Origin: Candidatus Doudnabacteria bacterium
GTDB lineage: Bacteria > Patescibacteriota > Doudnabacteria > UBA920
DNA length: 64,000 nt
Direction: 5' to 3'
NCBI GenBank assembly: GCA_023245995.1
Contig: JAHFJH010000003.1
Coordinates: 1,585 to 65,584, forward strand
Shown here piece after piece: positions 8,123 to 59,191 of the stretch. The notes beneath the pieces were generated by a model. That model had not been told where the DNA came from. It saw only the letters and a program-made list of their open reading frames with translations, and searched no databases. Made by a program: the position numbers and the translations under genes. Position 1 is the stretch's first letter; each line of letters starts with the position of its first letter.

Positions 8123-8476
8123 GTGACAGACCAAGAAATGCAGACACTACTAGCTCGCATGCGCGATGCTAAAACTGCAGAAGGGCTTTTTATAGCTGAG
8201 ATCGCCAACAGAAGTGGCCAAGCAGCGGAAAGTCACAGAAGTAATGCCACAACGGTTGTAGCCGCCCTAATTATGATGGCCTATACAGCCTACATTCACT
8301 ACGACTGGCCTCACCCTTTCTCGTGGCTAATGGTTGGAGGATTTTTTCTGGCCGGAGTCGCGTGCATTGGTAGCAAGGTAACAGAAAAAGACTATGTGGA
8401 GTTGTGTCATGGGTGCTGGACGATTGCATTCTTTGTATGGCTAATTTTCATAGCCGTACCGAACATCTTCCTGTAA
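8123..8476 (+). CDS. hypothetical small membrane protein (GTG start)
   Basis: Strong SD taAGGAGGaaacGTG. 117 aa with two or three hydrophobic helices. Confidence 0.5.
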   Translation: MTDQEMQTLLARMRDAKTAEGLFIAEIANRSGQAAESHRSNATTVVAALIMMAYTAYIHYDWPHPFSWLMVGGFFLAGVACIGSKVTEKDYVELCHGCWTIAFFVWLIFIAVPNIFL

Positions 8477-11049: not shown

Positions 11050-11778
11050 TTACTCCACCATTTTTGAGATCTTTTCTACCATGGCTACAAACTGTTTGCT
11101 GTGCACGTTACGAGGTCGTGGAAACGGATTGTCTATTATTTTCTCTATAGTCCCAGGACGTGCTGTAAACACGGCTATACGGTCTGCCATAAGCAATGCC
11201 TCTTCCACCGAATGTGTAACCATAACCACTGTAACCTTGTGCTCCCGCCAAATTTTTAAAACCTCTTGCCGTAATTTTACTTCTGTAAACGTGTCTAGCG
11301 CAGAAAAAGGTTCATCAAAAAAAATAATTTTCGGACTCATGGCCAAAGCTCGGGCAATTCCCACCCTTTGTTTCATACCCCCTGAAAGTTCTCGCGGATA
11401 AGCTCGCTCAAACCCTTGTAAACCCATTTCCGCTACCAAGTCTGCTACTATTCTATTTTTAAGACCACCGTGCACGTTGTTCATGTCCAAACCAAAACGA
11501 ATATTTTGCTCCACATTTAGCCACGGGAACAAAGCAAAGTCTTGAAATACAAAAGATATATTTGCATTTGTCTTTTTTACGCTCCCACTATCTGGTTCTT
11601 CTAAACCCGTTAATAAGCGCAACAAAGTAGACTTACCACTTCCCGAAGGTCCAAGTAACATTAAAAATTCGTACTCACGAACGTCTAAATTTATATCACG
11701 CAACACTTGTACACGTTTTTCGTCTTCGTCAAAATGCTTCGTGACATTTTTTACCTGAATTAGTATTTTTGGTTTCAT
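11050..11778 (-). CDS. ABC transporter ATP-binding protein (NitT/TauT-like)
   Basis: Walker A GPSGSGKST, signature LSGGMKQRV, Walker B IIFFDEPFSALD. Confidence 0.85.
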   Translation of the reverse strand: MKPKILIQVKNVTKHFDEDEKRVQVLRDINLDVREYEFLMLLGPSGSGKSTLLRLLTGLEEPDSGSVKKTNANISFVFQDFALFPWLNVEQNIRFGLDMNNVHGGLKNRIVADLVAEMGLQGFERAYPRELSGGMKQRVGIARALAMSPKIIFFDEPFSALDTFTEVKLRQEVLKIWREHKVTVVMVTHSVEEALLMADRIAVFTARPGTIEKIIDNPFPRPRNVHSKQFVAMVEKISKMVE

Positions 11779-15747: not shown

Positions 15748-17892
15748 TTAGCTAAAAATTAAGCGGAAAATATTTTTCTTTCTGTGTAAAACGTAACCGG
15801 CAGTCAATAGTCCTGCAAAAGCTATACCACTAAGGGCGTCGGTCATGCCACCAGTTTTTGGTGGAGTGTAAGATGGTGGAGGGTTAATAACTATGGTTAT
15901 AGTATTGCCAAAGGTGTTTACCATTTGGTAACTAATATTTGTAGACAAATAGTACTTTACGCGTACACGAAATGTCTTAGTTACTGTTCCATTTGCTGCA
16001 ATAGTTACTGCTGGGTAAGTAATTGTCTGCCCAGTAAGTGTTCCACCGCCAAGGTCTGTAACATCGGCCAACGGAAGCACGCCTGACAAATTATCGGAGA
16101 TAATATAATTTGGCGCTTCAGCATTACCGGTATTATTTACAGTCAACTTATAGGTAATAAAGTCCTCACGGCTGGCTGGAGTAGTTATGGCGTTTACATT
16201 CTTAGTGTCGTTCCATGCGCTCTTAGAAAGAGTAATGCTTGGGGCTCCGGAAATAGTACCGGTTACACATGAAGTATCGGAGACGCCAGTAGCGTTAGAA
16301 GCAGCAGTAGTTGCAGTGTTACACACATTTGTGTTAACGCTGACAGCGCTTGCAGCAGTGTACAAATACCCAACAACAATTTCTTGATTGGCAGCTAAAG
16401 TACCTGTAAAGTTTACTGCGCCATTATATAACTGGCCAGTGAAAGAACGAGTAGCGGTAAAGCTTCTAAAATCGGTAACTAAGTTTGATGGGTTTATAAG
16501 ATCGTTTAAGGTAACCCCAGTTGCATCTATGTTACCGGTATTACGAATGCGAACTTGGTATTCCAAAACGTCACCAGCTTTCACATTGCTTAAGTTTTCA
16601 GCAAATGGACCATTTTGTGTGACGTTGCGTACTAACTTTATTATAGACAAGCTAGTGTAGTTTTGAGTTACGTTTACGTTACAATTAACGGAATCATTGC
16701 CAGAATTTACTGTTACAGTTTTGTTACCAGCGGTAGCGTAACTTACTTGAGCACTAGCGTTGTTAACAGATGCTGTGGCTGTACCAGGTGTAGACCAAGA
16801 GTAAGTTCCAGTACCACCAGTTGCAGTAATAGTTACCACTTGGGCAATATTTGCAGCTTGGTTTGCAGGTGTACACACTAGCTTAGCTGGTGTTGGGGTT
16901 GGAGTAGGAGTTGGTGTAGGAGTTGGGGTTGGACAGTTTGAAGAAACATTAGTTTTAACTGTATTGCTAAAGACTAAAGTTTTAAAATTATTTAACTCAA
17001 GAGCTGAAATATTTGCAACGTTAACAATGTCTTTATTGGTACAATTAGCCAAGCTCTTTACTTTTACACGAATATTTACTTGTCCAGTTTGTCCTGGTGT
17101 GACTGTATTTGCGTTCCAGTACATGGTTCTTGTTGCAGAATCATACACTGCTTTATCTATATAACCAGCAGTAACATTGGCTGAATGGGTTTCGCTAACG
17201 TAGTCAACAAGTTCATCTAAATGGTCAACCAAACGAACACCACTACCTGTACAGCTGGCAGTTCCAGTATTTTTAAAATTTACAGTGTAGGTTAGTTCAT
17301 CACCTGGTTTTGCATTAGTTTTATCTACAGCCTTGGTTAGTTCCAACTGACACACGCCTACTGGTGTAGGAGTTGGTGTAGGGGTTGGAGTAGGAGTAGG
17401 TGTTACACAAACAACTTTTGTGGACATCATAGCCCAAGTCTGTGCATACGGATTTTGGGAAGAAACCTCAGCCTTAATAGGCATATCTGCTCCGCAGGTA
17501 GGATTACTTACTACTCGGAAAGTAAATTGCGTATTGACTGTTTTACCTGGGTCAATAGTGGCAATAGTACAAACCGAGGTAAGGTTTGACTGATCAAAAG
17601 TACAGGTGCTTCCCGTAGCTTTTACGAAGTTAAGGAAACCTGGGTTGTAGAGGTTGCTAATAGCAACACCGTTTAATACCACTGCACCAGGGTTTGTAAC
17701 AGCAACATTGTACACAACTTCTTGGTTCGGGCTCATTGTAGCCGGACCTGTCATTTGTGCAACAATAATTGAAGCTGTGTCTGCTTTAACAGGTGTATTT
17801 ACTGCAAAGGCAGAACCCAATATAAGACCAAAAGCGGCAACAAGCATTAAGCTTTTTGGACTTATTAAATTCTTCAGAGTTTGTAACATCAT
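15748..17892 (-). CDS. secreted cell-surface protein with DUF11-like repeats, two (TP)n linkers and a C-terminal sortase-type sorting signal
   Basis: N-terminal signal peptide. Repeated ...YxVxVxNxGxxxxxxVxLxDxL motifs (DUF11-like). TPTPTPTPTPTP appears twice. The C-terminus PPKTGGMTDALSGIAFAGLLTAGYVLHRKKN is an LPxTG-like motif followed by a hydrophobic segment and a basic tail. Confidence 0.7.
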   Translation of the reverse strand: MMLQTLKNLISPKSLMLVAAFGLILGSAFAVNTPVKADTASIIVAQMTGPATMSPNQEVVYNVAVTNPGAVVLNGVAISNLYNPGFLNFVKATGSTCTFDQSNLTSVCTIATIDPGKTVNTQFTFRVVSNPTCGADMPIKAEVSSQNPYAQTWAMMSTKVVCVTPTPTPTPTPTPTPVGVCQLELTKAVDKTNAKPGDELTYTVNFKNTGTASCTGSGVRLVDHLDELVDYVSETHSANVTAGYIDKAVYDSATRTMYWNANTVTPGQTGQVNIRVKVKSLANCTNKDIVNVANISALELNNFKTLVFSNTVKTNVSSNCPTPTPTPTPTPTPTPAKLVCTPANQAANIAQVVTITATGGTGTYSWSTPGTATASVNNASAQVSYATAGNKTVTVNSGNDSVNCNVNVTQNYTSLSIIKLVRNVTQNGPFAENLSNVKAGDVLEYQVRIRNTGNIDATGVTLNDLINPSNLVTDFRSFTATRSFTGQLYNGAVNFTGTLAANQEIVVGYLYTAASAVSVNTNVCNTATTAASNATGVSDTSCVTGTISGAPSITLSKSAWNDTKNVNAITTPASREDFITYKLTVNNTGNAEAPNYIISDNLSGVLPLADVTDLGGGTLTGQTITYPAVTIAANGTVTKTFRVRVKYYLSTNISYQMVNTFGNTITIVINPPPSYTPPKTGGMTDALSGIAFAGLLTAGYVLHRKKNIFRLIFS

Positions 17893-18226: not shown

Positions 18227-20713
18227 ATGCCAAAAGTTGAAACACATAGCACACATCAACAAAAATCCAATACCCACAAACCCAAGGCCTTACCAAACAA
18301 AAGAAAAAAAGTAAGTCGTAATATAAAAACCGGCAACCTTTTTAGAAGTCTTTTGAAAGGTGTTATATTTGGTTTCGCTTTGGTCGCGTCTTTAATTGGT
18401 TTGGTGTTACTAACTTACCTACTTATTTATAAGCTAGTTTCTCCAGACATTCAAAGCTATTTACAAAGTCCTGGTAAACAGTCTACAAAACTTTACGCAA
18501 GCAATGGCACGCTACTCTACGAAATTTATAAAGACGAAAAACGAACTGACATACCCTTAAAAGATATGTCACCTCACTTTGTACGTGCCATGCTAGCAGC
18601 AGAAGACAGGGACTTCTACACACACCCAGGTTTCTCTGCTACATCTATTATTCGTGCAGCATTCCAAGACTTAGGCTCCCCTGAGCAACTTTCAGGTGGT
18701 AGTACCATAACACAACAGCTGGTAAAAAACTCCATTTTAACTAGACAGAAATCTTTTTACCGCAAAGTAGCAGAGGCAATATGGGCACGAGAGCTTGAGC
18801 GACATTTAAGCAAAGATGAAATTCTAACTCGCTATATTAACAGCACATCCTTTGGACGAAACAGCGCTGGCATTGAAGCAGCCAGTCTTTCGTACTTTGG
18901 CATTCACGCAAAAGACTTGGACGCTAGCCAAAGCGCATACCTTGCCGCCATGCCAAAAGCACCAAGTCTGCTTAGCCCAGGGGGTCCAAACAGAGAAACT
19001 CTAGACGCAAGACAACAATACATACTTTTTACCATGTACCAGCATGGAGACATAAACACTGAAGACTACAATAAAGCAAAAACAGAACAGGTGAATTTTA
19101 TACAACCGAACAATAGCATTATTGCGCCATACTTTACACTCTGGTTAAAAGGGCAAATAATTTCACAGTTCGGAGAAGAAAAAATATACGGTGGAGGCTT
19201 GAAAATATATACTACTCTTGACGCTAACTTGCAAAATTTGGCGGAACAAACTGTAAAAACATATGCCGCAAAAAATAAAAAATCTAATCGTGCTTCCAAT
19301 GCAGCGCTAGTCGCCATAAACCCAAAAACTGGTGGACTTCTGGCCATGGTTGGTGGTAAAGATTACTATGGAAAAAGCGAACCAGCCGGTTGCGTGCCAG
19401 GCAAAAATTGTTTGTTTGAACCTAACACGAACGTCGCCACTGCCCTACGCCAAGTTGGTAGTAGCTTTAAACCATATGTGTACGTAACTGCCTTTGGGCC
19501 AGACTTTAAATACACGCCTGCTACACTCGTCTCAGATATTTCTAAAAATTTTAGCGCACCAGGGGCTCCGGCGTACATACCGCATAACTACACAGGACAA
19601 CAATTTGGTCGTGTACCGGTGCGCAAGGCACTTGCCGGAAGCCTAAACATTGCTGCTGTGAATACGCTTGCACAAATAGGCATAGACCCTGTTATCCAAA
19701 ACTTACGCAACCTTGGCATAACCGCTCCTTTAAAAAATTGCGGTCTCGCGCTTGCTTTGGGTGGCTGTGAAATAAGCCTACTTGAACACACGGCGGGATT
19801 TGCCACCTTCGCAAATTTAGGCAAACGAAACACCGTCACGGGAATAGACCATATAGTAGACTCCAGCGGAAAAATTATTGTCCAAGATAATCCAGAAAAT
19901 AATCAAGTCATAAACGCTCAAGCAGCCTACGAACTGGTTAGCATAATGACAGACAACGACGCTAGAAGCTACATATTTGGTAAAAATAGTCCCCTGACTC
20001 TTGCAGACAGAAAAGTCGCAGCCAAAACTGGAACTACACAAAATTGGAAAGATGGTTTTACTGTAGGCTTTACGCCTTCACTCTCCGTGGGAGTATGGAC
20101 AGGAAATAACGACGGCACGCTTATGCGGGCAGGAGCAGATGGTGTAGTTACAGCCGCACCGCTCTGGCACGAGTTTATGACATCTGCTCTTGCCGGAACA
20201 GAACCAGAAGAATTTCCTGAACCAGATGGCATTACCAGACTTAAAATAAATCCTGCTACAGGTAAAGTTATAAAAACTGGTAATTCTGGTAAGTTGGAAG
20301 TTTTTGCTAGCTATGCCATTCCTTATAACGACTTCCAACTACCCGTAAAAGTTAAAAAGCCCACTGGTGTAGGAACTACTAAACCCAACTACAAAAACTT
20401 ACTAGCCAATGACGAAGAAGAAACTGTTGTTTTAGAACCATGGCAAAATGACATAGTTTTTAAGAGCCCGTTCGACGTGAAAGTATATACTGGCACAAGC
20501 AGTATAGAAACAAGTGTGGACTTGCTTTTAGACGGCAAGGTTATTGCTACAAAAACCGAAGCTCCATTTTTGTTTACTATTACAAACAAACTAACAAACG
20601 GCGCTCATACGCTAACAGCAAAAGCAACCCACTTCGGTTTACTGGAAAGCACAGACAGTGTAAACTTTAAAACATTTTTCAATCCCCCACCCGTGTCTCC
20701 TCGCGGGAAGTAG
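18227..20713 (+). CDS. class A penicillin-binding protein (glycosyltransferase + transpeptidase)
   Basis: N-terminal TM helix; GT51 motifs (AAEDRDFYTHPGFS, STITQQLVKN); transpeptidase S*xxK-like SSFKP and KTGT. 828 aa with a C-terminal extension. Confidence 0.9.
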   Translation: MPKVETHSTHQQKSNTHKPKALPNKRKKVSRNIKTGNLFRSLLKGVIFGFALVASLIGLVLLTYLLIYKLVSPDIQSYLQSPGKQSTKLYASNGTLLYEIYKDEKRTDIPLKDMSPHFVRAMLAAEDRDFYTHPGFSATSIIRAAFQDLGSPEQLSGGSTITQQLVKNSILTRQKSFYRKVAEAIWARELERHLSKDEILTRYINSTSFGRNSAGIEAASLSYFGIHAKDLDASQSAYLAAMPKAPSLLSPGGPNRETLDARQQYILFTMYQHGDINTEDYNKAKTEQVNFIQPNNSIIAPYFTLWLKGQIISQFGEEKIYGGGLKIYTTLDANLQNLAEQTVKTYAAKNKKSNRASNAALVAINPKTGGLLAMVGGKDYYGKSEPAGCVPGKNCLFEPNTNVATALRQVGSSFKPYVYVTAFGPDFKYTPATLVSDISKNFSAPGAPAYIPHNYTGQQFGRVPVRKALAGSLNIAAVNTLAQIGIDPVIQNLRNLGITAPLKNCGLALALGGCEISLLEHTAGFATFANLGKRNTVTGIDHIVDSSGKIIVQDNPENNQVINAQAAYELVSIMTDNDARSYIFGKNSPLTLADRKVAAKTGTTQNWKDGFTVGFTPSLSVGVWTGNNDGTLMRAGADGVVTAAPLWHEFMTSALAGTEPEEFPEPDGITRLKINPATGKVIKTGNSGKLEVFASYAIPYNDFQLPVKVKKPTGVGTTKPNYKNLLANDEEETVVLEPWQNDIVFKSPFDVKVYTGTSSIETSVDLLLDGKVIATKTEAPFLFTITNKLTNGAHTLTAKATHFGLLESTDSVNFKTFFNPPPVSPRGK

Positions 20714-20826
20714 CATAATACTTATAGGTCCTACAAGTCTTATATTCGCCCAGCCAATTTTACCAATGGAAAAGCGCGCAGATCATAAACCTGCGCGCTT
20801 CGTTGGCATCTCATTAATTCAAATCA

Positions 20827-21597
20827 CTACTGATAGTGGGCTTGGAATCCGTATAATTTGGCTACATGATTCCATTCCACGTGGTATTTTCGAAGCACCT
20901 GCTGAACCTGTGGGTCCGGGTGTTCCAACCAGTTGTACCAGATGGCATTGTAACTGCCACTGTCAGCACGATTAGGATTCACAAACACTGCAGTCTCGCC
21001 CAGATGCAAGGTTAAATCCTGATAGTTGCGTTCACGGAGCAGACGCGCCACTTCGGCGTCGAGGCTTACCGCAAGCGCTGCCGTTATTTCTTTGACGGCT
21101 GTGATGGCCTGCGCGTTGTCTGGGTTTACAGTAAGCTCAGTTTGATAACCAGCATTTACCAAAAACCCATTTCGAGACTCATGCACAGTGTCAGCCCGTA
21201 CCATAATGGTGCGGGGCTGCCAATACACACCCACTTTGAGCGGGTTGAGCCATTCACCTCCTTGTTCACTAATTACTCGGCCGCTATCCACAACCCACCA
21301 GCCATTAGCCCAACCAGAAAATCGGCACACACCTGCAAACGCTACGATGTTCAGTAATACCAATGGCAGCAGCCAACGCTGAGGGTCGACAGGATACCCA
21401 AACACCCGAACCGAAGAAACAATGAACAGCACCGCACCCACTACAAGCCCTAAGAGAAACCCGAACGAAGCATTCTCGTTGTTCATGCTACTGCCACGCA
21501 CGAACAGCGCGATCGCGAGTAATGCCAAACAGGTGTTAATAGTCCAGCCAGCAGCCCTAAGGACCGATGGCCAACGAACTGCGATTTGATGAGTCAT
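20827..21597 (-). CDS. hypothetical membrane protein on a GC-rich (~53%) island, possibly horizontally acquired
   Basis: Start reassigned to MTHQIAVRW (ATG at 21597), preceded by cAAGGAGGAGaag. Two N-terminal TM helices. GC is visibly higher than in flanking genes (~40%). Confidence 0.55.
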   Translation of the reverse strand: MTHQIAVRWPSVLRAAGWTINTCLALLAIALFVRGSSMNNENASFGFLLGLVVGAVLFIVSSVRVFGYPVDPQRWLLPLVLLNIVAFAGVCRFSGWANGWWVVDSGRVISEQGGEWLNPLKVGVYWQPRTIMVRADTVHESRNGFLVNAGYQTELTVNPDNAQAITAVKEITAALAVSLDAEVARLLRERNYQDLTLHLGETAVFVNPNRADSGSYNAIWYNWLEHPDPQVQQVLRKYHVEWNHVAKLYGFQAHYQ

Positions 21598-21819
21598 CTT
21601 CTCCTCCTTGATTGAGAGATGAGAACAATTTTTGCCATGCACCCACACGCTTGCGCGGCAGGCACGTTAAACTTATGACTAATTAAACATGTTTTTCACC
21701 CATCTGTCAAGGCATGTTTATCAAAAGCCCTTTATTCTGATCAGGATTTTAATTTCCCATTACTGCACTTAATATGTCTAAACCTCTTCGCATTTGCAAC
21801 TTGATTTACATAAATATTA

Positions 21820-22869
21820 TTAATGCGACAACGGAGAAGTCCAAACAACTGCGTTCGGATTGGTTCTGGAAATAAGCCCTATCCAAATTTGCCCTGGGTT
21901 TAGGACAACAATATTTCCCTGCGCGTCAAAATACTTTGCCAATTCTCCTTGGTTACGTTTCCACGTACCTTGAACAACGCCACCATTTCTAAAAATAAAG
22001 GCCTTTCCGGAACCATTTGTACGTATGCTCATACGACCCTTCTCGTCTCCCGGAATTTCTGCAACATCTGTAAGCTGGACAATTACGGTTGTAGGACTAA
22101 GTTGTTTTTTATTTTCAGCGTCAATATCCATTTCTCCGGCTAAAAACCGCGAATATGTTTTTGCAATAACATCATATTTAAATTCAACTTTATAACTTTC
22201 GGTAGAAAAATTCAGCGTAATTTTATTTGCTACCTGCGAAGATTGTTCAGTCACACTTGAAAATGCAAATGGCGTTGAGTCTAATGTTCTAGGTAAGTCG
22301 TGATCTGATAAATATTTTAGTAGCTTGTCTGTTGAGGTGTATACATTGTGCGGTGCTGCTCGTTGCAATACGCGTTCAAAAGTTGAGTCATTGTAAAACT
22401 GATTTACGTCTACAAGATGTGGAAATGCTTTTGCTTTTAATTTCGCAATAACTTCTGGACTCCCCCCAACATGGGCGTATAACGCACCGTAAGAGTCAGC
22501 AATCTCTGCGTAATACTCGCGAGCAGAACGAACAGGACCTATGTTTGGGCTATCTTTTTGGAACAAAGCTAGATAGCGAGTAATTCCACCCTCAGCTGCC
22601 ATTTCGTAAACTACTTCTGCGTTAGAAAGGCCACTTTGTGGACGCGCATCAGGGTGATTCTCTACCATAACCGCTAAAGGACGTCGGTGGGCAATTTCAG
22701 GCTTTGCCAAAATTCCGTTTAGAGTAGCTAGTTGTGTCTGTGTTGCCTCTTGTTGTGTTGGTTTTCTGACTGGCTCTGCGCTAGGCAAAAAACGCCATAC
22801 TAAAAGTCCAATTGCGATAAATAAAAAAACAACACCTGAAATTACCCATTTTTTAGATGAACTTTGCAT
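21820..22869 (-). CDS. DUF3048 (YerB-like) secreted or lipoprotein-type protein
   Basis: N-terminal TM or signal segment. PLAVMVENHPDARPQSGLSNAEVVYEMAAEGGITRYLALF matches the DUF3048 core. Confidence 0.55.
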   Translation of the reverse strand: MQSSSKKWVISGVVFLFIAIGLLVWRFLPSAEPVRKPTQQEATQTQLATLNGILAKPEIAHRRPLAVMVENHPDARPQSGLSNAEVVYEMAAEGGITRYLALFQKDSPNIGPVRSAREYYAEIADSYGALYAHVGGSPEVIAKLKAKAFPHLVDVNQFYNDSTFERVLQRAAPHNVYTSTDKLLKYLSDHDLPRTLDSTPFAFSSVTEQSSQVANKITLNFSTESYKVEFKYDVIAKTYSRFLAGEMDIDAENKKQLSPTTVIVQLTDVAEIPGDEKGRMSIRTNGSGKAFIFRNGGVVQGTWKRNQGELAKYFDAQGNIVVLNPGQIWIGLISRTNPNAVVWTSPLSH

Positions 22870-22880
22870 AAGCCTAATTG

Positions 22881-23711
22881 CTATTTATTATTCGAGTCGT
22901 CTTTGTGTTGCGCCGGCAAGACTGAGACGCTAAAATTCTCGCTCGCAGTAATTGCAGTGTTTATTTCTTTATACCTAGCTATGGCAGTGCTAGCGGTTAT
23001 GTAGCCGTCTACATAAAAATCTTTTCCTACATAGTTCTGTGCTGTAGTATAAAGCTCGGTTGTCGCGGCAAGTGCGTCGGTTAAGGTTGCATACTGCTCT
23101 GGCCGAAGCATATTCTGTGCGTCGGTTAAAGCCTGTCTTGTAATTTTGTTAGTTTGGTCAAGTAAACTTATCTTTCCGTCTATGCCTTTTACTAAATTTT
23201 GTTGTTGATAGGCGTCTCGGAACTGCTTGTCTATGTCGCTACGAAATTGCTCAAAAGCACTGAGATTGTTTTGCATAAACATAATGTCTAATCCCGATCT
23301 TGTCGTGTCATTGTCTATAAGCGCCTTTAACACTTGCTTGTGTATGCTAGTAATAGAGACGCTATTTGCAGCCAAAGTATCTGCCGACTTATAGTCTCCA
23401 CTGCGTGTGTCGGAAATTATTGTAGCTATAACTCTACCAACGGTTATATCTAGAGCTACTCTAGCAGATTTTTCCTCAGCACTGTTTTTACTAAACCAAG
23501 CACTTTCAATTTCTGCGTACCTCTGGTCTAGTTGGCGCGCCAAAGTTTCTGCTCGTGCGGGACCAGTTATATTTACCCATACCCATACCGGCTCGTTTAT
23601 TTTGGTTTCTAAACCGTACAAAAAACCAGATGGCCTTGCTTGAATAGCAAGCGGGATACTTACCACATAAGCCAAAACAAGCAAAAGAAAAATTATTTTT
23701 ATGTATTTCAT
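22881..23711 (-). CDS. hypothetical secreted protein
   Basis: Signal peptide MKYIKIIFLLLVLAYVVSIPLAIQA. 276 aa, no motif recognised. Confidence 0.45.
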   Translation of the reverse strand: MKYIKIIFLLLVLAYVVSIPLAIQARPSGFLYGLETKINEPVWVWVNITGPARAETLARQLDQRYAEIESAWFSKNSAEEKSARVALDITVGRVIATIISDTRSGDYKSADTLAANSVSITSIHKQVLKALIDNDTTRSGLDIMFMQNNLSAFEQFRSDIDKQFRDAYQQQNLVKGIDGKISLLDQTNKITRQALTDAQNMLRPEQYATLTDALAATTELYTTAQNYVGKDFYVDGYITASTAIARYKEINTAITASENFSVSVLPAQHKDDSNNK

Positions 23712-23922: not shown

Positions 23923-23996
23923 TGGTCGGGGTACCAGGAATCGAACCGGGACTACAAGACCCCCAGCCTTGCGTACTACCACTATACTATACCCCG
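23923..23996 (-). tRNA. tRNA-Pro (anticodon GGG)
   Basis: Hand fold: CGGGGTA/TACCCCG acceptor stem, D-loop AGTGGTAG, anticodon stem CAAGG/TCTTG with loop CTGGGGG (GGG, G37), T-loop TTCGATT, ACCA encoded. There is one C·U mismatch in the T-stem. Confidence 0.75.
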
Positions 23997-24004
23997 TCCC
24001 AAGC

Positions 24005-24279
24005 TCACCTACTAGTTCTATTTTTAAAATAACTTTCTAGTTTCTGCCTTAGCACTTCTCTCCCATATCCTGTTTTGAAAAACTTCTCTGCTTTTAAAGC
24101 ATCACGCTTTTCTATATACGCTTCATAAAATACCAGTTTAAACGGTCCATTCTTGGCTGTATATTTACCACCACGTTACCATTATGTTCTTTAAACCTTC
24201 TCCTTAGATCATCAGTACTGCCATAATATAGTTTATGATTACCAATAGATTCCAAAATGTAGGCATACCACATATACAT
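24005..24279 (-). pseudogene. frameshifted GIY-YIG (YhbQ/UPF0213-like) small nuclease gene
   Basis: Frame A gives MYMWYAYILESIGNHKLYYGSTDDLRRRFKEHNGN, then a stop. The +2 frame continues with GGKYTAKNGPFKLVFYEAYIEKRDALKAEKFFKTGYGREVLRQKLESYFKNRTSR*. The two frames together make a complete GIY-YIG domain broken by about a 1-nt indel near 24175 (AAA/AA run). Confidence 0.6.
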
Positions 24280-24346: not shown

Positions 24347-25372
24347 CTACACCGTAAAGTAGGGCATGTCGTTTGAGCTGTCCGTTGAAGTATTAAGTGC
24401 TTCTTTGTGCTCAGCCATCTTTTCTATTATATCCTGCAGTTCTTCGTCGCTGAAAAATTCTATTGTTATTTTTCCACCCTTACCCTGACGTTGAACCTTT
24501 ACTTGTGTGCCCAAACGAGTCCTAAGCTCTGACTCTATGGCCATGAGTTTTGGATCTGGAGCTGCAGCGTCCATTTGTCGTTTTAGTGAAAGCTCACGAG
24601 CTTTAGCTTCTACCTGACGCACATTTAAATTTTGGTCAATAATTGCTTTAAATAAAGCTAACTGTTTTTCCGGTTCACTTACCCCAAGTATTGCGCGTGC
24701 ATGCCCTTCGGTAATTCTACCGTCAATAACTGCCCGCTGAACTTCCACTGGCAAATTTAATAAACGAAGGGTATTGGTCACAGCTGGCCGGCTTTTGCCA
24801 ACCTTCTGCGCCACTTGATCTTGAGTTAAATTAAAAGTTTTAATTAAACGGTCGTAAGCCCGCGCTTCTTCTATAGCGTTAAGTTCCCTGCGTTGAATAT
24901 TTTCAATTAATGCTACCTCTAGTTTAGTTTGGTCTTCTAAACTTTGTTTTACAATTGCAGGAACGCGCAAAAGCCCAGCCAAAATAGAAGCACGAAACCT
25001 GCGCTCCCCTACTACTAACTCATAACCCGCAGATGTTTTAGTAACTACAATTGGTTGAATAACTCCATACTCTTTTATGGAGGCAGCAAGCTCTTTTAGA
25101 CCCTCTGGGTCAAAAATTTTTCTTGGTTGAAAAGGATTTGGAACAATCTTTGTAACTTCTATTTCTTCTATTTGCGCATCTTGATAGGAAACTCGTTCAT
25201 TTACAGTATCTGGTATATTTAAAGGTTCGAACACTTCAGTCGGAGCGGCAACAGTAGCAACCTGTGGCACTGGTGCCATGTAACCTAAAATAGATGAAAA
25301 CACATCATCGTCCAATACTGGTTCAGTGTATAAATTGTTGTTTGTAGTTTGTGTTGTTATACCGTCTAACAT
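24347..25372 (-). CDS. parB: ParB/Spo0J-family partition protein (start moved to an internal ATG)
   Basis: GERRFRASILAG box, HTH region LTQDQVAQKVGKSRPAVTNTLRLL, ParB N-terminal domain. The track ORF's N-terminus overlaps tRNA-Leu, so the start is taken at MLDGITT (ATG 25372). Confidence 0.85.
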   Translation of the reverse strand: MLDGITTQTTNNNLYTEPVLDDDVFSSILGYMAPVPQVATVAAPTEVFEPLNIPDTVNERVSYQDAQIEEIEVTKIVPNPFQPRKIFDPEGLKELAASIKEYGVIQPIVVTKTSAGYELVVGERRFRASILAGLLRVPAIVKQSLEDQTKLEVALIENIQRRELNAIEEARAYDRLIKTFNLTQDQVAQKVGKSRPAVTNTLRLLNLPVEVQRAVIDGRITEGHARAILGVSEPEKQLALFKAIIDQNLNVRQVEAKARELSLKRQMDAAAPDPKLMAIESELRTRLGTQVKVQRQGKGGKITIEFFSDEELQDIIEKMAEHKEALNTSTDSSNDMPYFTV

Positions 25373-25417
25373 ATTTGAAAACTGCTGGATACTACTCCAG
25401 CAAATAAAAGATAATTT

Positions 25418-25502
25418 TGGTGCCGGTGGTGGGAGTCGAACCCACACATCTTTCGATACACGATTTTGAGTCGTGCGCGTCTGCCAGTTCCGCCACACCG
25501 GC
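25418..25502 (-). tRNA. tRNA-Leu (anticodon CAA), class II with a long variable arm
   Basis: GCCGGTG/CACCGGC acceptor stem, D-arm TGGCGGAACTGGCAGACGC (close to E. coli tRNA-Leu), anticodon loop CTCAAAA, T-arm GTGGGTTCGACTCCCAC, CCA encoded. Confidence 0.85.
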
Positions 25503-29914: not shown

Positions 29915-30199
29915 ATGTCTATCATCAACTTGCATGCCTATGACGATGCAGTCTGGCTTGCAGAAAGACTGTTAGTAGATGCGGGAGCCAATGTAGTCGT
30001 ACTGCGCGACTATGGAGGCCCTCCAACCAAAGAGCTGAAACAAAAAATACTGATTGCGCTGTATGATGCGGTTTTACATGACAGGCTCAAAACCATACAA
30101 GCGCTAGCAAGGTTACTGGAGGCTAGGTATGAAACACCGAGGGACACCATTCCACAGTTGCTTGTCGCTCTCCAAGCGGAGGAGCTCGAGGCAGCTTAG
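29915..30199 (+). CDS. hypothetical small protein
   Basis: Strong SD gAAGGAGGtactgcttATG. 94 aa, helical, slightly GC-enriched. Confidence 0.5.
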   Translation: MSIINLHAYDDAVWLAERLLVDAGANVVVLRDYGGPPTKELKQKILIALYDAVLHDRLKTIQALARLLEARYETPRDTIPQLLVALQAEELEAA

Positions 30200-33737: not shown

Positions 33738-33986
33738 ATGAAGCGAGTAAAGCAGACGACTGAATCAACAACGACGATGCTGCCAGAGCGTTTCTATGTT
33801 GAACATGTGAACGAAGCAGATCGTGTCAGAAAGGCCACACCACATCTTAACACCGCCACCCTGATAGAATGCCCGAGTAGGTGTGGTCAACAACACTTCG
33901 CAAACGCAATTCCAGTACAATGTTACCGGACCCATACAAAATCTAAGCGTCCACCACGAAACCCCAATCAATACAACGGCGGTTAA
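33738..33986 (+). CDS. hypothetical small basic protein
   Basis: SD cGGAGGactaacaATG. 82 aa, contains CPSRCG. It competes with two overlapping ORFs in the same gap. Confidence 0.3.
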   Translation: MKRVKQTTESTTTMLPERFYVEHVNEADRVRKATPHLNTATLIECPSRCGQQHFANAIPVQCYRTHTKSKRPPRNPNQYNGG

Positions 33987-45931: not shown

Positions 45932-47176
45932 TTATTTTTGTTCCGTATAATCTTTAAACTCAACAAGCATCTTTTCAAAGTAGTCGTATTGTATAGCGTT
46001 GCGAATCTTTTCCATAAAGTTTAAGTAGAAACGCAAGTTGTGCATGGTTGCAAGACGCTCGCCTAAGGGCTCTCCTGTTTGGAACAGGTGACGCACATAG
46101 GCGCGGGTATGATGCAGACACGCGTAGCAGTTGCAGGTGGCGTCTATAGGCGTAAAGTCTTCTTTGTGCTTTTCAAGCCTGATATCAATTGTTTCGTACC
46201 CTTCTATAAATCTACTGGACAGTTCGTCATTGTCTAACGATACCTGTCCGTTATCAGGCGCAGCCCGACGTAGCCTTGGCGAAGTTGGGTCAATTTCCAC
46301 TTGCTTTGCCACATATAGCCTTCCATGCCTTGCTTCCCTTGTCGGAATAACACAATCAAACGTATCACACCCGCGGGCTACGGCCTGAATAATATCGTAA
46401 GGAGTACCTACCCCAAGTAAATGTTTAGGTGCATTTTCCGGCAAATGAGGAACAGCGGACTCAACTGCAAGCATCATTTCCTCATGTGGCTCCCCTACTG
46501 CAACACCACCAATAGCAAAACCTTCGAAGCCCAAAGCTACCATGTCCTGCGCCGATTGTTTTCGTAAATCCGGAAAGCTTGCACCTTGCACTATACCCCA
46601 AAGTTTTTGTCCGGGGTTTACTGGGTCGCCGTCTACAATAATTTTTTGATGCTCTTTTACTGCGCGCTCCGCCCAGCGTTTGGTTAGGGCTATGGACTCG
46701 AGGCTTCTTTCGTGCTCGAAAGGGAACCCAGGAAAGTCGTCTAAAATTAAGGCCACATCGCTTCCTAAGTTTGCCTGTATGTCTACCGACTTCTCAGGTG
46801 ACAAAATTTCATGTTTACCGTCCATGTCAAACTGGAACATGACACCAACTTCCATGGTCTTTCGCATTTTTGCCAAAGAGTAAACTTGAAACCCGCCAGA
46901 GTCGGTAAAAATTGGTCCATGCCAATTCATAAACTTATGCAAGCCACCGGCTTTGTAAATAAGTCCGTCACCAGGCCTCTGCCACAAGTGGTAGGTATTT
47001 GCTAACACCATAGAAGCACCCCAAAATTTTAGCTCTTCACTAGTAACTGCTTTTACAGTACCGCGAGTACCAATAGGCAAAAACTGTGGCGTATGTACGT
47101 CACCATGCGCTGTATGTATAACGCCCTTCCGTGCGCGTGACGACGGATCCTTTTTTTCAATTTCAAAATAATCCAT
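45932..47176 (-). CDS. tgt: queuine tRNA-ribosyltransferase
   Basis: TGT motifs including the zinc site CxCxxC...H (CNCYACLHHTRAYVRHL), a catalytic Asp region and LANTYHL. Confidence 0.92.
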   Translation of the reverse strand: MDYFEIEKKDPSSRARKGVIHTAHGDVHTPQFLPIGTRGTVKAVTSEELKFWGASMVLANTYHLWQRPGDGLIYKAGGLHKFMNWHGPIFTDSGGFQVYSLAKMRKTMEVGVMFQFDMDGKHEILSPEKSVDIQANLGSDVALILDDFPGFPFEHERSLESIALTKRWAERAVKEHQKIIVDGDPVNPGQKLWGIVQGASFPDLRKQSAQDMVALGFEGFAIGGVAVGEPHEEMMLAVESAVPHLPENAPKHLLGVGTPYDIIQAVARGCDTFDCVIPTREARHGRLYVAKQVEIDPTSPRLRRAAPDNGQVSLDNDELSSRFIEGYETIDIRLEKHKEDFTPIDATCNCYACLHHTRAYVRHLFQTGEPLGERLATMHNLRFYLNFMEKIRNAIQYDYFEKMLVEFKDYTEQK

Positions 47177-50757: not shown

Positions 50758-51753
50758 ATGCAAGATAATGTAGAAAAAAATAGGCTACAAAAATACATTC
50801 GCGAGTTTCTGGAGTACTGTGAGATAGAAAAAAATAAGAGCAACCGAACTATTAGCAACTACGAACACTACCTTGGCAGATTTAGTAAATTTGCTAGCTC
50901 AGAAAGCGTAACTAAACCTGAGCAAATCAAATTGGAACTCGTCCGCAAGTACAGGCTCTACTTAAACAGATATGTAGACGATAAGGGCAACAAGTTAAAG
51001 CTCATCACCCAGAACTACCATGTAATAGCCCTCCGGGCTTTCCTTAAATACTTAAGTAAGAACGATATAGAAACTCTTGCACCAGAAAAAATAGAACTTG
51101 CAAAAAACCCTAGCCGCCAAATAGAAGCCCTAGAGCAAGACGAACTTGCAGGAGTAATGCAAGCAGTCGGCCAGGAACAAGAAGAAATTTTACGCCTGCG
51201 CGACCGCGCCATTTTGCTTACTCTATTTTCTACCGGTGTTCGTATAAGCGAACTAACTGCGCTAAAACGAGAAATGGTCAACGTAGACCGCGGCGAATTT
51301 ACCGTGCGGGGAAAAGGTGACAAACTACGTCTAGTATTTCTTTCACCCGATGCAGCAAACGCAATAAAGGCATATTTAAAAAAACGGATAGATAACCATC
51401 CGGGACTATTTATTGCCCACTCCAACATAGGAAAAGGTAAAGCAATGGAAGCAGAAATAACAGCGCAAGGTTTTAAGCGCTCGGAAAAAAACGACGGCAA
51501 GGCAGCTGGTCTATCGGCTAGAAGTATACAAAGACTTATACATAAGTACGCAATGCTTGCTGGCATTACCCACCACGTATCCCCTCACACTTTTCGCCAT
51601 AGCTTCGCAACAGATCTTTTGAGAAACGGCGCGGACATTCGAAGTGTACAAACCATGCTTGGCCACGCTAGCATTACCACAACACAAATTTACACCCATG
51701 TCACAAACGAAGGCCTACGCGAAATTCACAAAAAATTCCACGATAAAAAATAG
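50758..51753 (+). CDS. tyrosine site-specific recombinase (XerC/XerD / phage-integrase family)
   Basis: Catalytic residues in context: ...RDRAILLTLFSTGVRISEL..., HTFRHSFATDLLRNGADIRSVQTMLGHASITTTQIYTHV (R..H-R-H...Y). Confidence 0.85.
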   Translation: MQDNVEKNRLQKYIREFLEYCEIEKNKSNRTISNYEHYLGRFSKFASSESVTKPEQIKLELVRKYRLYLNRYVDDKGNKLKLITQNYHVIALRAFLKYLSKNDIETLAPEKIELAKNPSRQIEALEQDELAGVMQAVGQEQEEILRLRDRAILLTLFSTGVRISELTALKREMVNVDRGEFTVRGKGDKLRLVFLSPDAANAIKAYLKKRIDNHPGLFIAHSNIGKGKAMEAEITAQGFKRSEKNDGKAAGLSARSIQRLIHKYAMLAGITHHVSPHTFRHSFATDLLRNGADIRSVQTMLGHASITTTQIYTHVTNEGLREIHKKFHDKK

Positions 51754-58996: not shown

Positions 58997-59191
58997 TTAC
59001 AAGAGCTCTTTTTTGCACCATGGACAGTGTGTAATCTTCTCTATCTTTATCGTAAAGGCAAAAATGGCAGCCCTAAACTGTTCTAACCACCAACTATCTT
59101 TATCCTTTAAAATAAGCATGTCCCACTGATCTTCGGGTCTTTGTCTACAGTCATGCTGCTGCCGAATGTTTAGTTCAAACTTTCTATTCAT
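58997..59191 (-). CDS. small hypothetical protein with a C-terminal HCPWC motif
   Basis: Internal ATG with a strong SD (cAAGGAGGtatctATG) gives a 64-aa MNRKFELNIRQQHDC...ITHCPWCKKELL. The track's longer ORF is rejected. Confidence 0.45.
   Translation of the reverse strand: MNRKFELNIRQQHDCRQRPEDQWDMLILKDKDSWWLEQFRAAIFAFTIKIEKITHCPWCKKELL

What the first reader, a model, noticed from the sequence alone, without database searches (positions are those of the whole stretch)
20827..21648. Single-gene GC-rich island encoding a membrane protein with a perfect SD
The ~0.8-kb segment is about 53% GC against ~40% in flanking genes. It encodes a 2-TM protein with a soluble C-terminal domain (MTHQIAVRWP...), preceded by cAAGGAGGAG. 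It sits between convergent genes (PBP1A and a DUF3048 protein). Composition suggests recent horizontal acquisition from a higher-GC donor.
Basis: seen in the sequence. Interest (0 to 1): 0.5.

Follow-up and report, generated by a model that had tools for sequence, protein, structure and literature searches.

The report
Foreign-looking orphan membrane gene island
A single 256-codon gene for a membrane protein with no detectable relative in the public protein collections searched sits in a small-genome Saccharibacteria chromosome; it has the base composition and ribosome-binding site of a different, GC-richer organism, so it is probably an ordinary horizontally acquired orphan gene, in a spot where related genomes carry other orphan genes.

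Summary
Window 20827-21597 (minus strand) is a 256-codon ORF at 51.5% GC in a 41.0% GC window. It is the GC maximum of the 64 kb (z=+4.05 against 49 other ORFs; GC3 0.53 vs 0.36). Its tetranucleotide profile is uncorrelated with the rest of the window (r=0.05 vs 0.75±0.10). Corrections: GC is 51-52.5%, not 53%. There are three hydrophobic segments, not two. The 21648 end is an upstream GTG, not the start.

The ORF looks like a real gene. It is longer than any open frame in 5000 shuffles, its GC1/GC2/GC3 is 60/41/53, and its AAGGAGG lies 5 nt before the ATG. A promoter-like site and a stable terminator hairpin flank it. The AAGGAGG is unusual here: almost no other gene in the window has a Shine-Dalgarno site.

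The protein has no homolog in a word-indexed search of 5.8 billion sequences or an exhaustive HMMER search of 1.84 billion representatives. It has no family, PDB, phage or plasmid match. AlphaFold2 models are unusable.

Five assemblies of the same species carry the gene. The nearest other lineages (PBP1A 75% identical) keep the flanks but fill the slot with different genes. Those genes are also Shine-Dalgarno-led, GC3-enriched orphans encoding secreted proteins.

Best reading: a horizontally acquired, self-contained orphan cassette in a plastic envelope-gene slot. Donor and function are unknown. Interest is modest.

The parts
20827..21597 (-). Coding sequence of orphan protein X (256 aa plus stop), ATG at 21597-21595, TAG at 20829-20827
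   Evidence: ORF listing and translation. The slot's stop-free run is 279 codons; 5000 dinucleotide shuffles give a mean of 110 and a maximum of 270. GC1/GC2/GC3 is 0.60/0.41/0.53. The protein is 100% identical in same-species contigs L001 and L002, and the only SNP, at 21433, leaves the protein unchanged.
21319..21555 (-). N-terminal membrane region: three hydrophobic segments (aa 15-33, 44-66, 75-93)
   Evidence: Kyte-Doolittle 19-residue windows of at least 1.6. AlphaFold2 helices at 9-37, 40-62 and 72-93. The N-in/C-out topology is inferred from the positive-inside rule (R8, R14, R63, R74) and was not tested.
20830..21318 (-). C-terminal domain of about 160 aa, fold unknown, predicted to face outside the cytoplasm
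   Evidence: No hydrophobic segments. Mixed strand and helix prediction, but pLDDT is 45-49, so the fold is not interpretable. No Pfam, NCBIfam, PHROG, PADLOC or PDB match.
21601..21609 (-). Shine-Dalgarno sequence AAGGAGGAG, with GGAGG 5 nt upstream of the ATG
   Evidence: Read directly from the sequence. It is atypical here: of 50 ORFs of at least 120 aa, only X (7 nt) and EF-Tu (5 nt) match the anti-SD complement by 5 nt or more. A scan of all GGAGG sites finds only a few other Shine-Dalgarno-led ORFs, all small orphans.
21682..21710 (-). Promoter-like site: TTGACA (21710-21705), 17-nt spacer, TTTAAT (21687-21682)
   Evidence: Read from the sequence. This is a consensus match only. The scan tool did not list it because it requires A at position 2 of the -10 hexamer. 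Function was not tested.
20772..20800 (.). GC-rich hairpin (AAGCGCGCAG / CTGCGCGCTT) between the convergent stop codons of X and PBP1A; likely a terminator, followed by UUUUCC on the X strand
   Evidence: Perfect 10-nt inverted repeat (I20). On the X strand the fold energy is -27 kcal/mol with z=-4.4 and 0 of 200 shuffles as stable. On the PBP1A strand z=-3.2.
20895..21664 (.). Best-fit limits of the GC-rich island (52.5% inside, 41.7% outside)
   Evidence: Two-change-point likelihood scan of 19500-23000, 2*dLL = 27.9. The limits are good to a few tens of bases. The island includes the Shine-Dalgarno site and about 65 nt of leader. It appears to stop about 68 nt before the stop codon, but that offset is not significant.
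18227..20713 (+). Conserved left flank: class A penicillin-binding protein (PBP1A)
   Evidence: Pfam Transgly 2.4e-55 and Transpeptidase 6.4e-18. 75% identical to the syntenic gene in L003 and L004.
21820..22869 (-). Conserved right flank: DUF3048 protein, same strand as X and upstream of it
   Evidence: Pfam DUF3048 3.1e-47 and DUF3048_C 9.6e-26. 51-55% identical to the syntenic genes of the sister lineages.

Best explanation
X is a real protein-coding gene of foreign origin. It was inserted as a self-contained cassette (leader with its own Shine-Dalgarno site, ORF, terminator hairpin) into a variable slot between the convergent genes for PBP1A and a DUF3048 protein. The host is a Saccharibacteria (Patescibacteria) chromosome. 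The donor genome was probably about 50-54% GC and used Shine-Dalgarno sites. It cannot be identified, because the protein has no detectable relative.

The most plausible route is uptake of free DNA by natural transformation followed by illegitimate or homology-facilitated recombination. No integrase, att repeats or tRNA junction accompany the gene.

The product is predicted to sit in the membrane through three N-terminal helices, with a domain of about 160 aa outside the cytoplasm. The neighbourhood is dominated by cell-envelope genes. In related lineages the same slot carries other lineage-specific secreted proteins. I therefore infer an accessory cell-surface role, such as interaction with a host cell or with phage, rather than a housekeeping one.

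Shown: the compositional anomaly, the coding signal, the orphan status, presence in every assembly of this species that was found, and absence with a different slot content in the nearest lineages.

Inferred: the foreign origin, the transfer route, the topology and the surface role.
For: Composition:
- GC is 51.5% against 41.0%, z=+4.05. GC3 is 0.529 against 0.361±0.044, z=+3.8, and the highest value among the others is 0.445.
- The tetranucleotide correlation is 0.05 against 0.75±0.10.
- K/(K+R) is 0.21 against 0.59±0.10, and Trp is 4.3% against 1.0%.
- GC1/GC2/GC3 map to a genome of 54/54/50% GC under regressions that return 39/37/40% for the host's own genes.
- EF-Tu, which is highly expressed in bacteria generally (textbook knowledge, not measured here), has a GC3 of only 0.39. 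Expression level therefore does not explain the GC3 of X.

Shine-Dalgarno site: AAGGAGG is essentially absent from the other ORFs of at least 120 aa.

Real gene:
- The ORF is longer than any in 5000 shuffles.
- There is no RNA-family match and no excess folding energy.
- The terminator hairpin has z=-4.4.

Not an assembly chimera: the same junctions occur in five contigs from four ENA or Logan samples shown, at 99.95% DNA identity where DNA was returned.

Absent from relatives: L003, L004, L089, L091 and L092 keep DUF3048. Those that reach far enough (L003, L004, L089) keep PBP1A as well. All carry unrelated genes in the slot.

Orphan: itself only in the word-indexed search of 5.8 billion clusters. 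In the exhaustive phmmer search of 1.84 billion representatives the five other hits are repeat-protein artefacts.

Route: Saccharibacteria are naturally competent through ComEC. A cassette inserted between convergent ORFs was used there as a neutral site (PMC10633639). Individually transferred genes are reported in Patescibacteria (PMC12455944).
Against: - No donor homolog exists, so transfer is inferred from composition and phyletic pattern alone.
- The nearest genome without X is distant (PBP1A 75%, DUF3048 about 52% identical). Loss in relatives or old acquisition cannot be excluded.
- The sister-slot genes show the same Shine-Dalgarno plus high-GC3 signature. Several small Shine-Dalgarno-led orphans elsewhere in the window are also GC-enriched. 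This could mean a native class of accessory genes with its own compositional regime rather than repeated import.
- The dinucleotide signature is only at the 94th percentile, and the codon-bias distance has z=1.3.
- There is no expression, topology or structural evidence. AlphaFold2 pLDDT is 45-49.
- The surface-role inference rests on context only.
Confidence: 0.6

Rival explanations
1. X belongs to a clade-wide class of fast-turning-over accessory genes that live in this slot and a few other places. These genes are Shine-Dalgarno-led and GC3-enriched, and they encode secreted or membrane proteins. They are exchanged or replaced within Saccharibacteria and their mobile elements, not imported once from an unrelated GC-richer organism.
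For: - In L003, L004, L089, L091 and L092 the slot genes are also preceded by AGGAGG, GGAGG or AGGAG, while their PBP1A and most other core neighbours are not. DUF3048 in L003 and L092 has an AGGAG about 13 nt upstream.
- Their GC3 is 0.45-0.63 against 0.35-0.46 in most neighbours. One L091 neighbour reaches 0.56.
- They are clade-restricted orphans. A profile of two of them finds only 3 proteins in 5.8 billion.
- Some are shared between lineages at 37-55% identity.
- In the window, other Shine-Dalgarno-led small orphans have 48-50% GC.
Against: - X itself has no relative in any Saccharibacteria genome or viral contig.
- Its GC excess (+10 points) is well above that of the sister-slot genes (+1 to +6).
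- It is on the opposite strand from them.
- No mechanism is known that would hold a native gene class at a different synonymous-site composition.
Confidence: 0.22
2. X is not a functional gene. It is a chance or decaying open frame in a piece of foreign or non-coding GC-rich DNA, or a truncated remnant of a larger foreign gene whose frame runs on into native sequence.
For: - There is no homolog, no confident fold (pLDDT 45-49) and no selection signal.
- Only one SNP is available. It leaves the protein unchanged, and about 0.4 SNPs were expected.
- The last ~68 nt of the ORF are at host-like GC, about 41%. This is compatible with read-through into native DNA.
Against: - The ORF exceeds every one of 5000 dinucleotide shuffles.
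- The GC1>GC3>GC2 pattern matches real genes of that GC content.
- A strong Shine-Dalgarno site lies at the right spacing from the ATG.
- Three well-formed hydrophobic helices are followed by a polar domain.
- The protein sequence is unchanged in all the same-species contigs recovered.
- The GC drop at the 3' end is within sampling noise for about 70 nt.
Confidence: 0.1
3. The GC-rich island is a structured non-coding RNA or a mobile-element remnant (for example an intron or integrative element), and the ORF is incidental.
For: GC-rich patches in AT-rich genomes are often structural RNA genes (general knowledge).
Against: - No Rfam family reaches its gathering score, and the best sub-threshold hit has E about 1.
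- Folding z-scores are -1.1 and -0.7 on the two strands.
- There are no flanking direct or inverted repeats beyond chance, and no adjacent integrase or tRNA. The nearest tRNA is 2.3 kb away behind two conserved genes. The only recombinase gene found among the ORFs scanned lies 29 kb away.
- There is no phage, plasmid or viral match.
Confidence: 0.03
4. The island is an assembly or binning chimera that joins DNA of two organisms.
For: The window comes from metagenome-assembled material, and an abrupt GC change can be a sign of a chimera.
Against: Five contigs carry the protein, and the four places shown come from four different samples (three ENA, one Logan). All four show the same gene order around X. 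Both junctions are confirmed at 99.95% DNA identity in L001 and L002, the two for which DNA was returned.
Confidence: 0.02

Closest known systems
Horizontally acquired ORFan genes / genomic islets (single-gene compositional islands)
   Same: Atypical GC, GC3 and oligonucleotide signature. No homologs. Conserved flanks, with the gene absent from related genomes. Encodes an envelope protein.
   Different: No donor can be named, and the acquisition cannot be dated. The slot is variable across the whole clade, so this is gene replacement at a hotspot rather than a simple insertion into an empty site.
Phage 'morons' (autonomous promoter-gene-terminator cassettes of deviant composition inserted between two genes; recalled from the phage-genomics literature, not tested against a database)
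   Same: A single gene with its own promoter-like site, strong ribosome-binding site and terminator hairpin. Its composition differs from both neighbours, and it lies between two genes that are adjacent-type neighbours elsewhere.
   Different: It lies in a core chromosomal region between housekeeping genes, not in a prophage. No phage genes were found among the ORFs scanned, and there is no match to phage collections.
Classical integrative genomic islands (tRNA-linked, integrase-bearing, flanked by direct repeats)
   Same: Deviant base composition; accessory content.
   Different: It is 0.8 kb rather than more than 10 kb. There is no integrase, no att repeats and no tRNA at the junction.
Engineered neutral-site insertion in Saccharibacteria (NS1 between convergent ORFs, introduced by natural transformation; PMC10633639)
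   Same: A foreign expression cassette sits between two convergently transcribed genes of a Saccharibacteria chromosome, a position shown there to tolerate insertion.
   Different: That insertion was made with 1-kb homology arms in the laboratory. No flanking homology to a donor can be assessed here.

Membership tests
Horizontally acquired orphan gene (genomic islet) | Base composition and oligonucleotide signature deviate significantly from the host genome | tested here: met
   GC z=+4.05 and GC3 z=+3.8. It contains the highest-GC 771-nt window in the 64 kb. Tetranucleotide r=0.05 against 0.75±0.10.
Horizontally acquired orphan gene (genomic islet) | Absent from related genomes that keep the flanking genes | tested here: met
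   L003, L004 and L089 keep DUF3048 and PBP1A with other genes in between. L091 and L092 keep DUF3048 with other genes downstream. The nearest relatives are distant (PBP1A 75% identical).
Horizontally acquired orphan gene (genomic islet) | A homolog in a plausible donor lineage | tested here: not met
   No true homolog in 5.8 billion clustered proteins or 1.84 billion representatives, nor in phage, plasmid or viral collections.
Classical integrative genomic island | Integrase or recombinase gene within or next to the island | tested here: not met
   The neighbours are PBP1A, DUF3048, a 276-aa hypothetical protein and ParB. The only tyrosine recombinase found among the ORFs scanned is at 50758-51753, 29 kb away.
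Classical integrative genomic island | Flanking direct (att) repeats, often at a tRNA gene | tested here: not met
   Only short chance-level repeats were found. The nearest tRNA (Pro, 23923-23996) is separated from X by two conserved genes.
Phage moron-like autonomous cassette | Own promoter and own terminator bracketing a single gene | tested here: inconclusive
   TTGACA-17-TTTAAT lies upstream, and a stable hairpin with a U-rich tail lies downstream. Both are sequence predictions only.
Phage moron-like autonomous cassette | Located within a phage or prophage genome | tested here: not met
   Core chromosomal context (EF-Tu, EF-G, aminoacyl-tRNA synthetases, PBP1A). No phage matches.
SPFH/band-7 membrane proteins (a resemblance I suspected by eye) | Detectable sequence match to the Band_7 domain or to solved SPFH structures | tested here: not met
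   No Band_7 hit in Pfam at E<=0.1. No SPFH chain in the PDB sequence search at E<=10. No fold match, though the model is of low confidence.
Structured non-coding RNA | Match to a curated RNA family, or folding energy beyond shuffled controls | tested here: not met
   Rfam returns only the tRNAs elsewhere in the window, and the best local hit has E about 1. Folding z-scores are -1.1 and -0.7.

The most novel reading that the evidence does not exclude
The slot downstream of PBP1A is a clade-wide exchange hotspot in these Saccharibacteria. It, and a few other intergenic sites, receive self-contained, Shine-Dalgarno-led, GC-enriched orphan cassettes from a still unsampled gene pool, for example unknown Saccharibacteria phages or host bacteria. 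The cassettes would enter by natural transformation. Their secreted or membrane products would set host-cell attachment specificity or phage resistance. On this reading X is the first member of a new envelope-protein family, and a Shine-Dalgarno site in a genome poor in such sites is a practical marker of recently imported genes.
Probability: 0.12. Interest if true: 0.6.

Novelty: new member of a known kind. Interest (0 to 1): 0.3.

Why it matters
On its own this is one more orphan gene in a microbial 'dark matter' genome. It is useful as an annotation (a real gene, probably foreign, membrane-anchored) but not surprising.

Two side results are more reusable. First, in this genome a strong Shine-Dalgarno site marks compositionally foreign orphan genes. 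That gives a cheap, independent flag for imported genes in Patescibacteria, if it holds genome-wide. Second, the DUF3048/PBP1A junction is a variable slot across a Saccharibacteria clade. It always holds lineage-specific secreted or membrane proteins, which makes it a candidate locus for host-interaction or phage-resistance determinants. Saccharibacteria can now be transformed, so such genes have become testable.

Tried and rejected
1. Protein family assignment. Pfam, NCBIfam, PHROGs, PADLOC and a PDB sequence search gave only sub-threshold hits driven by transmembrane segments.

2. Remote homology. The exhaustive phmmer search returned five hits with E between 5e-9 and 8e-5. All are long internally repetitive proteins of unrelated kinds (TPR-like, Calx-beta, unnamed repeats), each matched in 5-8 stretches to the same ~50 residues of X. 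I rejected them as summed-score artefacts.

3. Structure. AlphaFold2 on the full protein (pLDDT 49, pTM 0.26) and on the C-terminal 162 aa (pLDDT 45, pTM 0.42) was too poor to use. Foldseek against the PDB gave nothing below E=0.37 and TM<=0.23.

4. SPFH/band-7 resemblance, suspected by eye from the C-terminal sequence. No database support, so I dropped it.

5. Non-coding RNA. Rfam and folding z-scores were negative.

6. att-like repeats. None was convincing. The best pair flanking the gene (14 nt, 86%, inverted, I4) is at chance level.

7. Closer relatives. The JGI metagenome scan with a PBP1A profile found nothing above 54% identity. The DUF3048 protein search found nothing between 55% and 100%. 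The insertion therefore could not be dated.

8. Phage, plasmid and viral origin. tblastn and blastn gave no significant match.

9. Intergenic alignments to map the insertion borders were too divergent to be informative.

10. A literature look-up of one source run accession found nothing.
Full report
**1. What is there**

The longest ORF overlapping the finding runs 20827-21648 on the minus strand (273 aa from a GTG). Seventeen codons into it, an ATG at 21597 is preceded by AAGGAGGAG (21609-21601), with GGAGG 5 nt upstream of the ATG. I take this ATG as the start, which gives 256 aa beginning MTHQIAVRWP.

The left neighbour is a class A penicillin-binding protein (18227-20713, +; Transgly 2.4e-55, Transpeptidase 6.4e-18). 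The right neighbour is a DUF3048 protein (21820-22869, -; 3.1e-47 and 9.6e-26). X lies on the DUF3048 strand, 222 nt downstream of that gene. It converges on PBP1A across a 113-nt spacer.

**2. Is the compositional anomaly real?**

Yes.
- The ORF is 51.5% GC.
- A 771-nt window overlapping X (20891-21661, 52.4% GC) is the maximum of the whole 64 kb. The next best is 49.2%.
- Against 49 other ORFs of at least 120 aa, X has z=+4.05 for GC. Its GC3 is 0.529 against 0.361±0.044 (z=+3.8), and no other ORF exceeds 0.445.
- A two-change-point likelihood scan places the island at 20895-21664, with 52.5% inside and 41.7% outside.
- The tetranucleotide frequency vector of X correlates at r=0.05 with the rest of the window. 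The 161 other windows of the same size give 0.75±0.10, with a minimum of 0.31.
- The GC-normalised dinucleotide signature is less extreme, at the 94th percentile. The codon-bias distance has z=1.3.
- At the protein level, K/(K+R) is 0.21 against 0.59±0.10, and tryptophan is 4.3% against 1.0%.

**3. Is it a gene?**

The evidence favours a real gene.
- The stop-free run in the slot is 279 codons. In 5000 dinucleotide-preserving shuffles the mean was 110 and the maximum 270.
- GC1/GC2/GC3 is 0.60/0.41/0.53. I applied the codon-position regressions of Lawrence and Ochman, recalled from memory. As an internal check, they return 39/37/40% genomic GC for the host's own genes. For X, the three positions map to 54, 54 and 50%. 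X therefore looks like an ordinary gene from a roughly 50-54% GC genome, with third positions perhaps slightly eroded toward the host. Random GC-rich DNA would not show this pattern.
- Hydropathy gives three hydrophobic segments (aa 15-33, 44-66, 75-93). This agrees with the helices in the AlphaFold2 model.
- By the positive-inside rule (R8, R14 and R63, R74 on one side), the N-terminus would be cytoplasmic and the C-terminal domain of about 160 aa would lie outside. This is an inference.
- A TTGACA-17 nt-TTTAAT promoter-like site lies at 21710-21682.
- A perfect 10-bp GC-rich inverted repeat at 20772-20800 lies about 27 nt after the stop codon. It extends to a 14-bp stem with a U-rich tail on the X strand, and folds at -27 kcal/mol with z=-4.4.
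- No RNA family matches, and neither strand folds better than shuffles.

**4. The Shine-Dalgarno site is itself an anomaly**

Of the 50 ORFs of at least 120 aa, only X (7 nt) and EF-Tu (AAGGA, 5 nt) have a match of 5 nt or more to the anti-SD complement in the 20 nt before the start codon. Most have AT-rich leaders with no match.

I scanned every GGAGG or AGGAGG in the window to guard against wrong start assignments. This found only a handful of other Shine-Dalgarno-led ORFs, all small and without family matches. They are 8123-8476 (117 aa, two hydrophobic stretches by eye), 29915-30199 (94 aa), 33738-33986 (82 aa) and 58997-59191 (64 aa). The first three are also GC-enriched, at 48-50%.

EF-Tu, which is highly expressed in bacteria generally, has a GC3 of 0.39. 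High expression therefore does not explain either feature of X.

**5. Relatives of the protein**

There are none.
- The word-indexed search of 5.8 billion clustered proteins returned only the protein itself.
- The exhaustive HMMER search of 1.84 billion representatives returned the protein itself plus five weak hits. All five are long repetitive proteins of unrelated families, matched through 5-8 summed stretches. I regard them as artefacts.
- Pfam, NCBIfam, PHROGs, PADLOC, the PDB sequences, phage records, plasmid records and IMG/VR contigs gave nothing significant.
- AlphaFold2 without an alignment gave pLDDT 49 for the full length and 45 for the C-terminal domain. Foldseek against the PDB found nothing.

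The fold and biochemical activity therefore remain unknown.

**6. Organism and sister genomes**

Relatives of the flanking genes identify the organism as a Saccharibacteria/Patescibacteria bacterium.

Five contigs carry exactly this protein. The four places shown come from four samples (three ENA, one Logan) and have the same gene order. The two for which DNA was returned are 99.95% identical to the window. The single SNP inside X leaves the protein unchanged. This excludes an assembly chimera, but all these contigs belong to one species.

The nearest other lineages are L003 and L004, which share the gene order MFS-SHMT-BacA-PAP2-ParB-hyp-DUF3048 ... PBP1A-DUF11-hyp. Their PBP1A is 75% identical and their DUF3048 about 52% identical. 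The same holds for L089, L091 and L092, reached through the DUF3048 protein search.

None of these lineages has X, even by tblastn at E=10. Their slot holds other genes on the PBP1A strand. These are signal-peptide-bearing proteins of 206-244 aa, plus 51-72-aa proteins in L004, L089 and L092. The genes are partly shared between lineages and partly different:
- L003_230 and L091_215 are 55% identical.
- L089_236 and L092_244 are 37% identical.
- The 72-aa protein is 76-97% identical between lineages.
- L004_243 is unique.

A profile of two of these proteins finds only three proteins in 5.8 billion, so they are clade-restricted orphans too.

Five of the seven larger slot genes are preceded by AGGAGG, GGAGG or AGGAG. 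Their GC3 is 0.45-0.63, against 0.35-0.46 for most of their neighbours; one L091 neighbour reaches 0.56. PBP1A and most other neighbours lack Shine-Dalgarno sites. DUF3048 in L003 and L092 has an AGGAG about 13 nt upstream.

The slot is thus a plastic locus across the clade. X is its most extreme occupant, with +10 GC points against +1 to +6 for the others, and the only one on the opposite strand. No closer relatives exist in the collections searched.

**7. Mechanism of arrival**

There are no att-like repeats. The nearest tRNA (Pro) is 2.3 kb away behind two conserved genes. The only recombinase gene found among the ORFs scanned is 29 kb away. X is therefore not a classical integrative island.

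Saccharibacteria have been shown experimentally to be naturally competent through ComEC. A cassette placed between two convergent ORFs was used there as a neutral site (PMC10633639). Individually transferred genes and islands are reported across Patescibacteria (PMC12455944). Uptake of free DNA followed by recombination into a tolerant intergenic slot is thus the most economical route. It remains an inference.

**8. Function**

The evidence here is indirect.
- The protein has a three-helix membrane anchor with a probably external domain.
- The neighbourhood is made of envelope genes: PBP1A, DUF3048, a DUF11 repeat protein (with a hydrophobic C-terminal segment by eye), BacA and PAP2.
- In relatives the slot always carries lineage-specific secreted proteins.

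I therefore commit to an accessory cell-surface role, such as host-cell or phage interaction, with low confidence in that part.

**9. Comparison and verdict**

The closest known kind is a horizontally acquired ORFan or genomic islet. Its anatomy recalls phage 'morons': an autonomous cassette of deviant composition. It fails the tests for a classical genomic island, a prophage element, an SPFH protein and a structured RNA.

Foreign, GC-richer origin is the best explanation, and neither refuting condition was met. The donor is unidentifiable, recency is undatable, and a clade-wide accessory gene class with the same signature is a real alternative.

Novelty: a new member of a known kind. Interest: modest (0.3).

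Noticed in passing
window 8123-8476 (+), 29915-30199 (+), 33738-33986 (+), 58997-59191 (-): Four small ORFs (117, 94, 82 and 64 aa) are the only other ORFs of at least 60 aa in the window led by a GGAGG-type Shine-Dalgarno site, apart from two matches that lie inside longer ORFs. None has a Pfam match or a relative in the fetched loci. Three of them have 48-50% GC against the window's 41%. They may be further imported single-gene cassettes. Most lie on the strand opposite to their neighbours.
   Followed up: partly
window-wide (50 ORFs of at least 120 aa): Shine-Dalgarno sites are nearly absent from the core genes of this genome. Apart from X, only EF-Tu (729-1916, -) has a 5-nt match. Leaders are AT-rich.
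   Followed up: partly
L003 11356-12782; L004 1247-2713; L089 7221-9060; L091 3827-5161; L092 4140-5724: In the sister lineages, the DUF3048/PBP1A slot holds lineage-specific proteins of 206-244 aa with signal-peptide-like N-termini, plus proteins of about 51-72 aa in three of the five lineages. They lie on the PBP1A strand. Most of the larger ones are Shine-Dalgarno-led, and most are GC3-enriched. They are restricted to this clade (3 proteins in 5.8 billion for one family).
   Followed up: partly
window 22869-22881 versus L003 8787-10001, L089 4806-5876, L091 1047-2099, L092 1613-2743: The sister lineages carry a queA-like gene (PF02547, Queuosine_synth) between the 273-aa hypothetical gene and DUF3048. 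In the window these two genes abut with an 11-nt gap, so the gene is missing at this position. A tgt gene is still present at 45932-47176.
   Followed up: no
window 24112-24279 (-): A 55-aa ORF begins like a small GIY-YIG nuclease (YAYILES...LYYGSTDDLRRRFKEHN) but then diverges. It is probably a frameshifted or truncated remnant, lying between tRNA-Pro and ParB. L091 has an intact 98-aa GIY-YIG gene next to DUF3048.
   Followed up: no
window 25373-25502 (-): The longest ParB ORF (GTG at 25498) runs through tRNA-Leu(CAA) at 25418-25502. The true ParB start is the ATG at 25372 (341 aa), as called in the public contigs.
   Followed up: yes
window 15748-17892 (-): A 714-aa protein with four DUF11 stretches (labelled CLIPPER in the precomputed annotation), two PTPTPTPT linkers and a hydrophobic C-terminal segment (linkers and anchor judged by eye). 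Only its C-terminal half is well conserved in L003 and L004 (64% against about 36% for the N-terminal part). It looks like a fast-evolving adhesin-like protein next to PBP1A.
   Followed up: no
L003 ~11180-11215, L089, L092 (alignment A3, columns ~205-255): The sister lineages share a conserved hairpin (GCGACAAC...GTTGTCGC) just downstream of DUF3048. It is probably that gene's terminator. The window lacks it at the equivalent place, where the leader and promoter-like site of X now lie.
   Followed up: no
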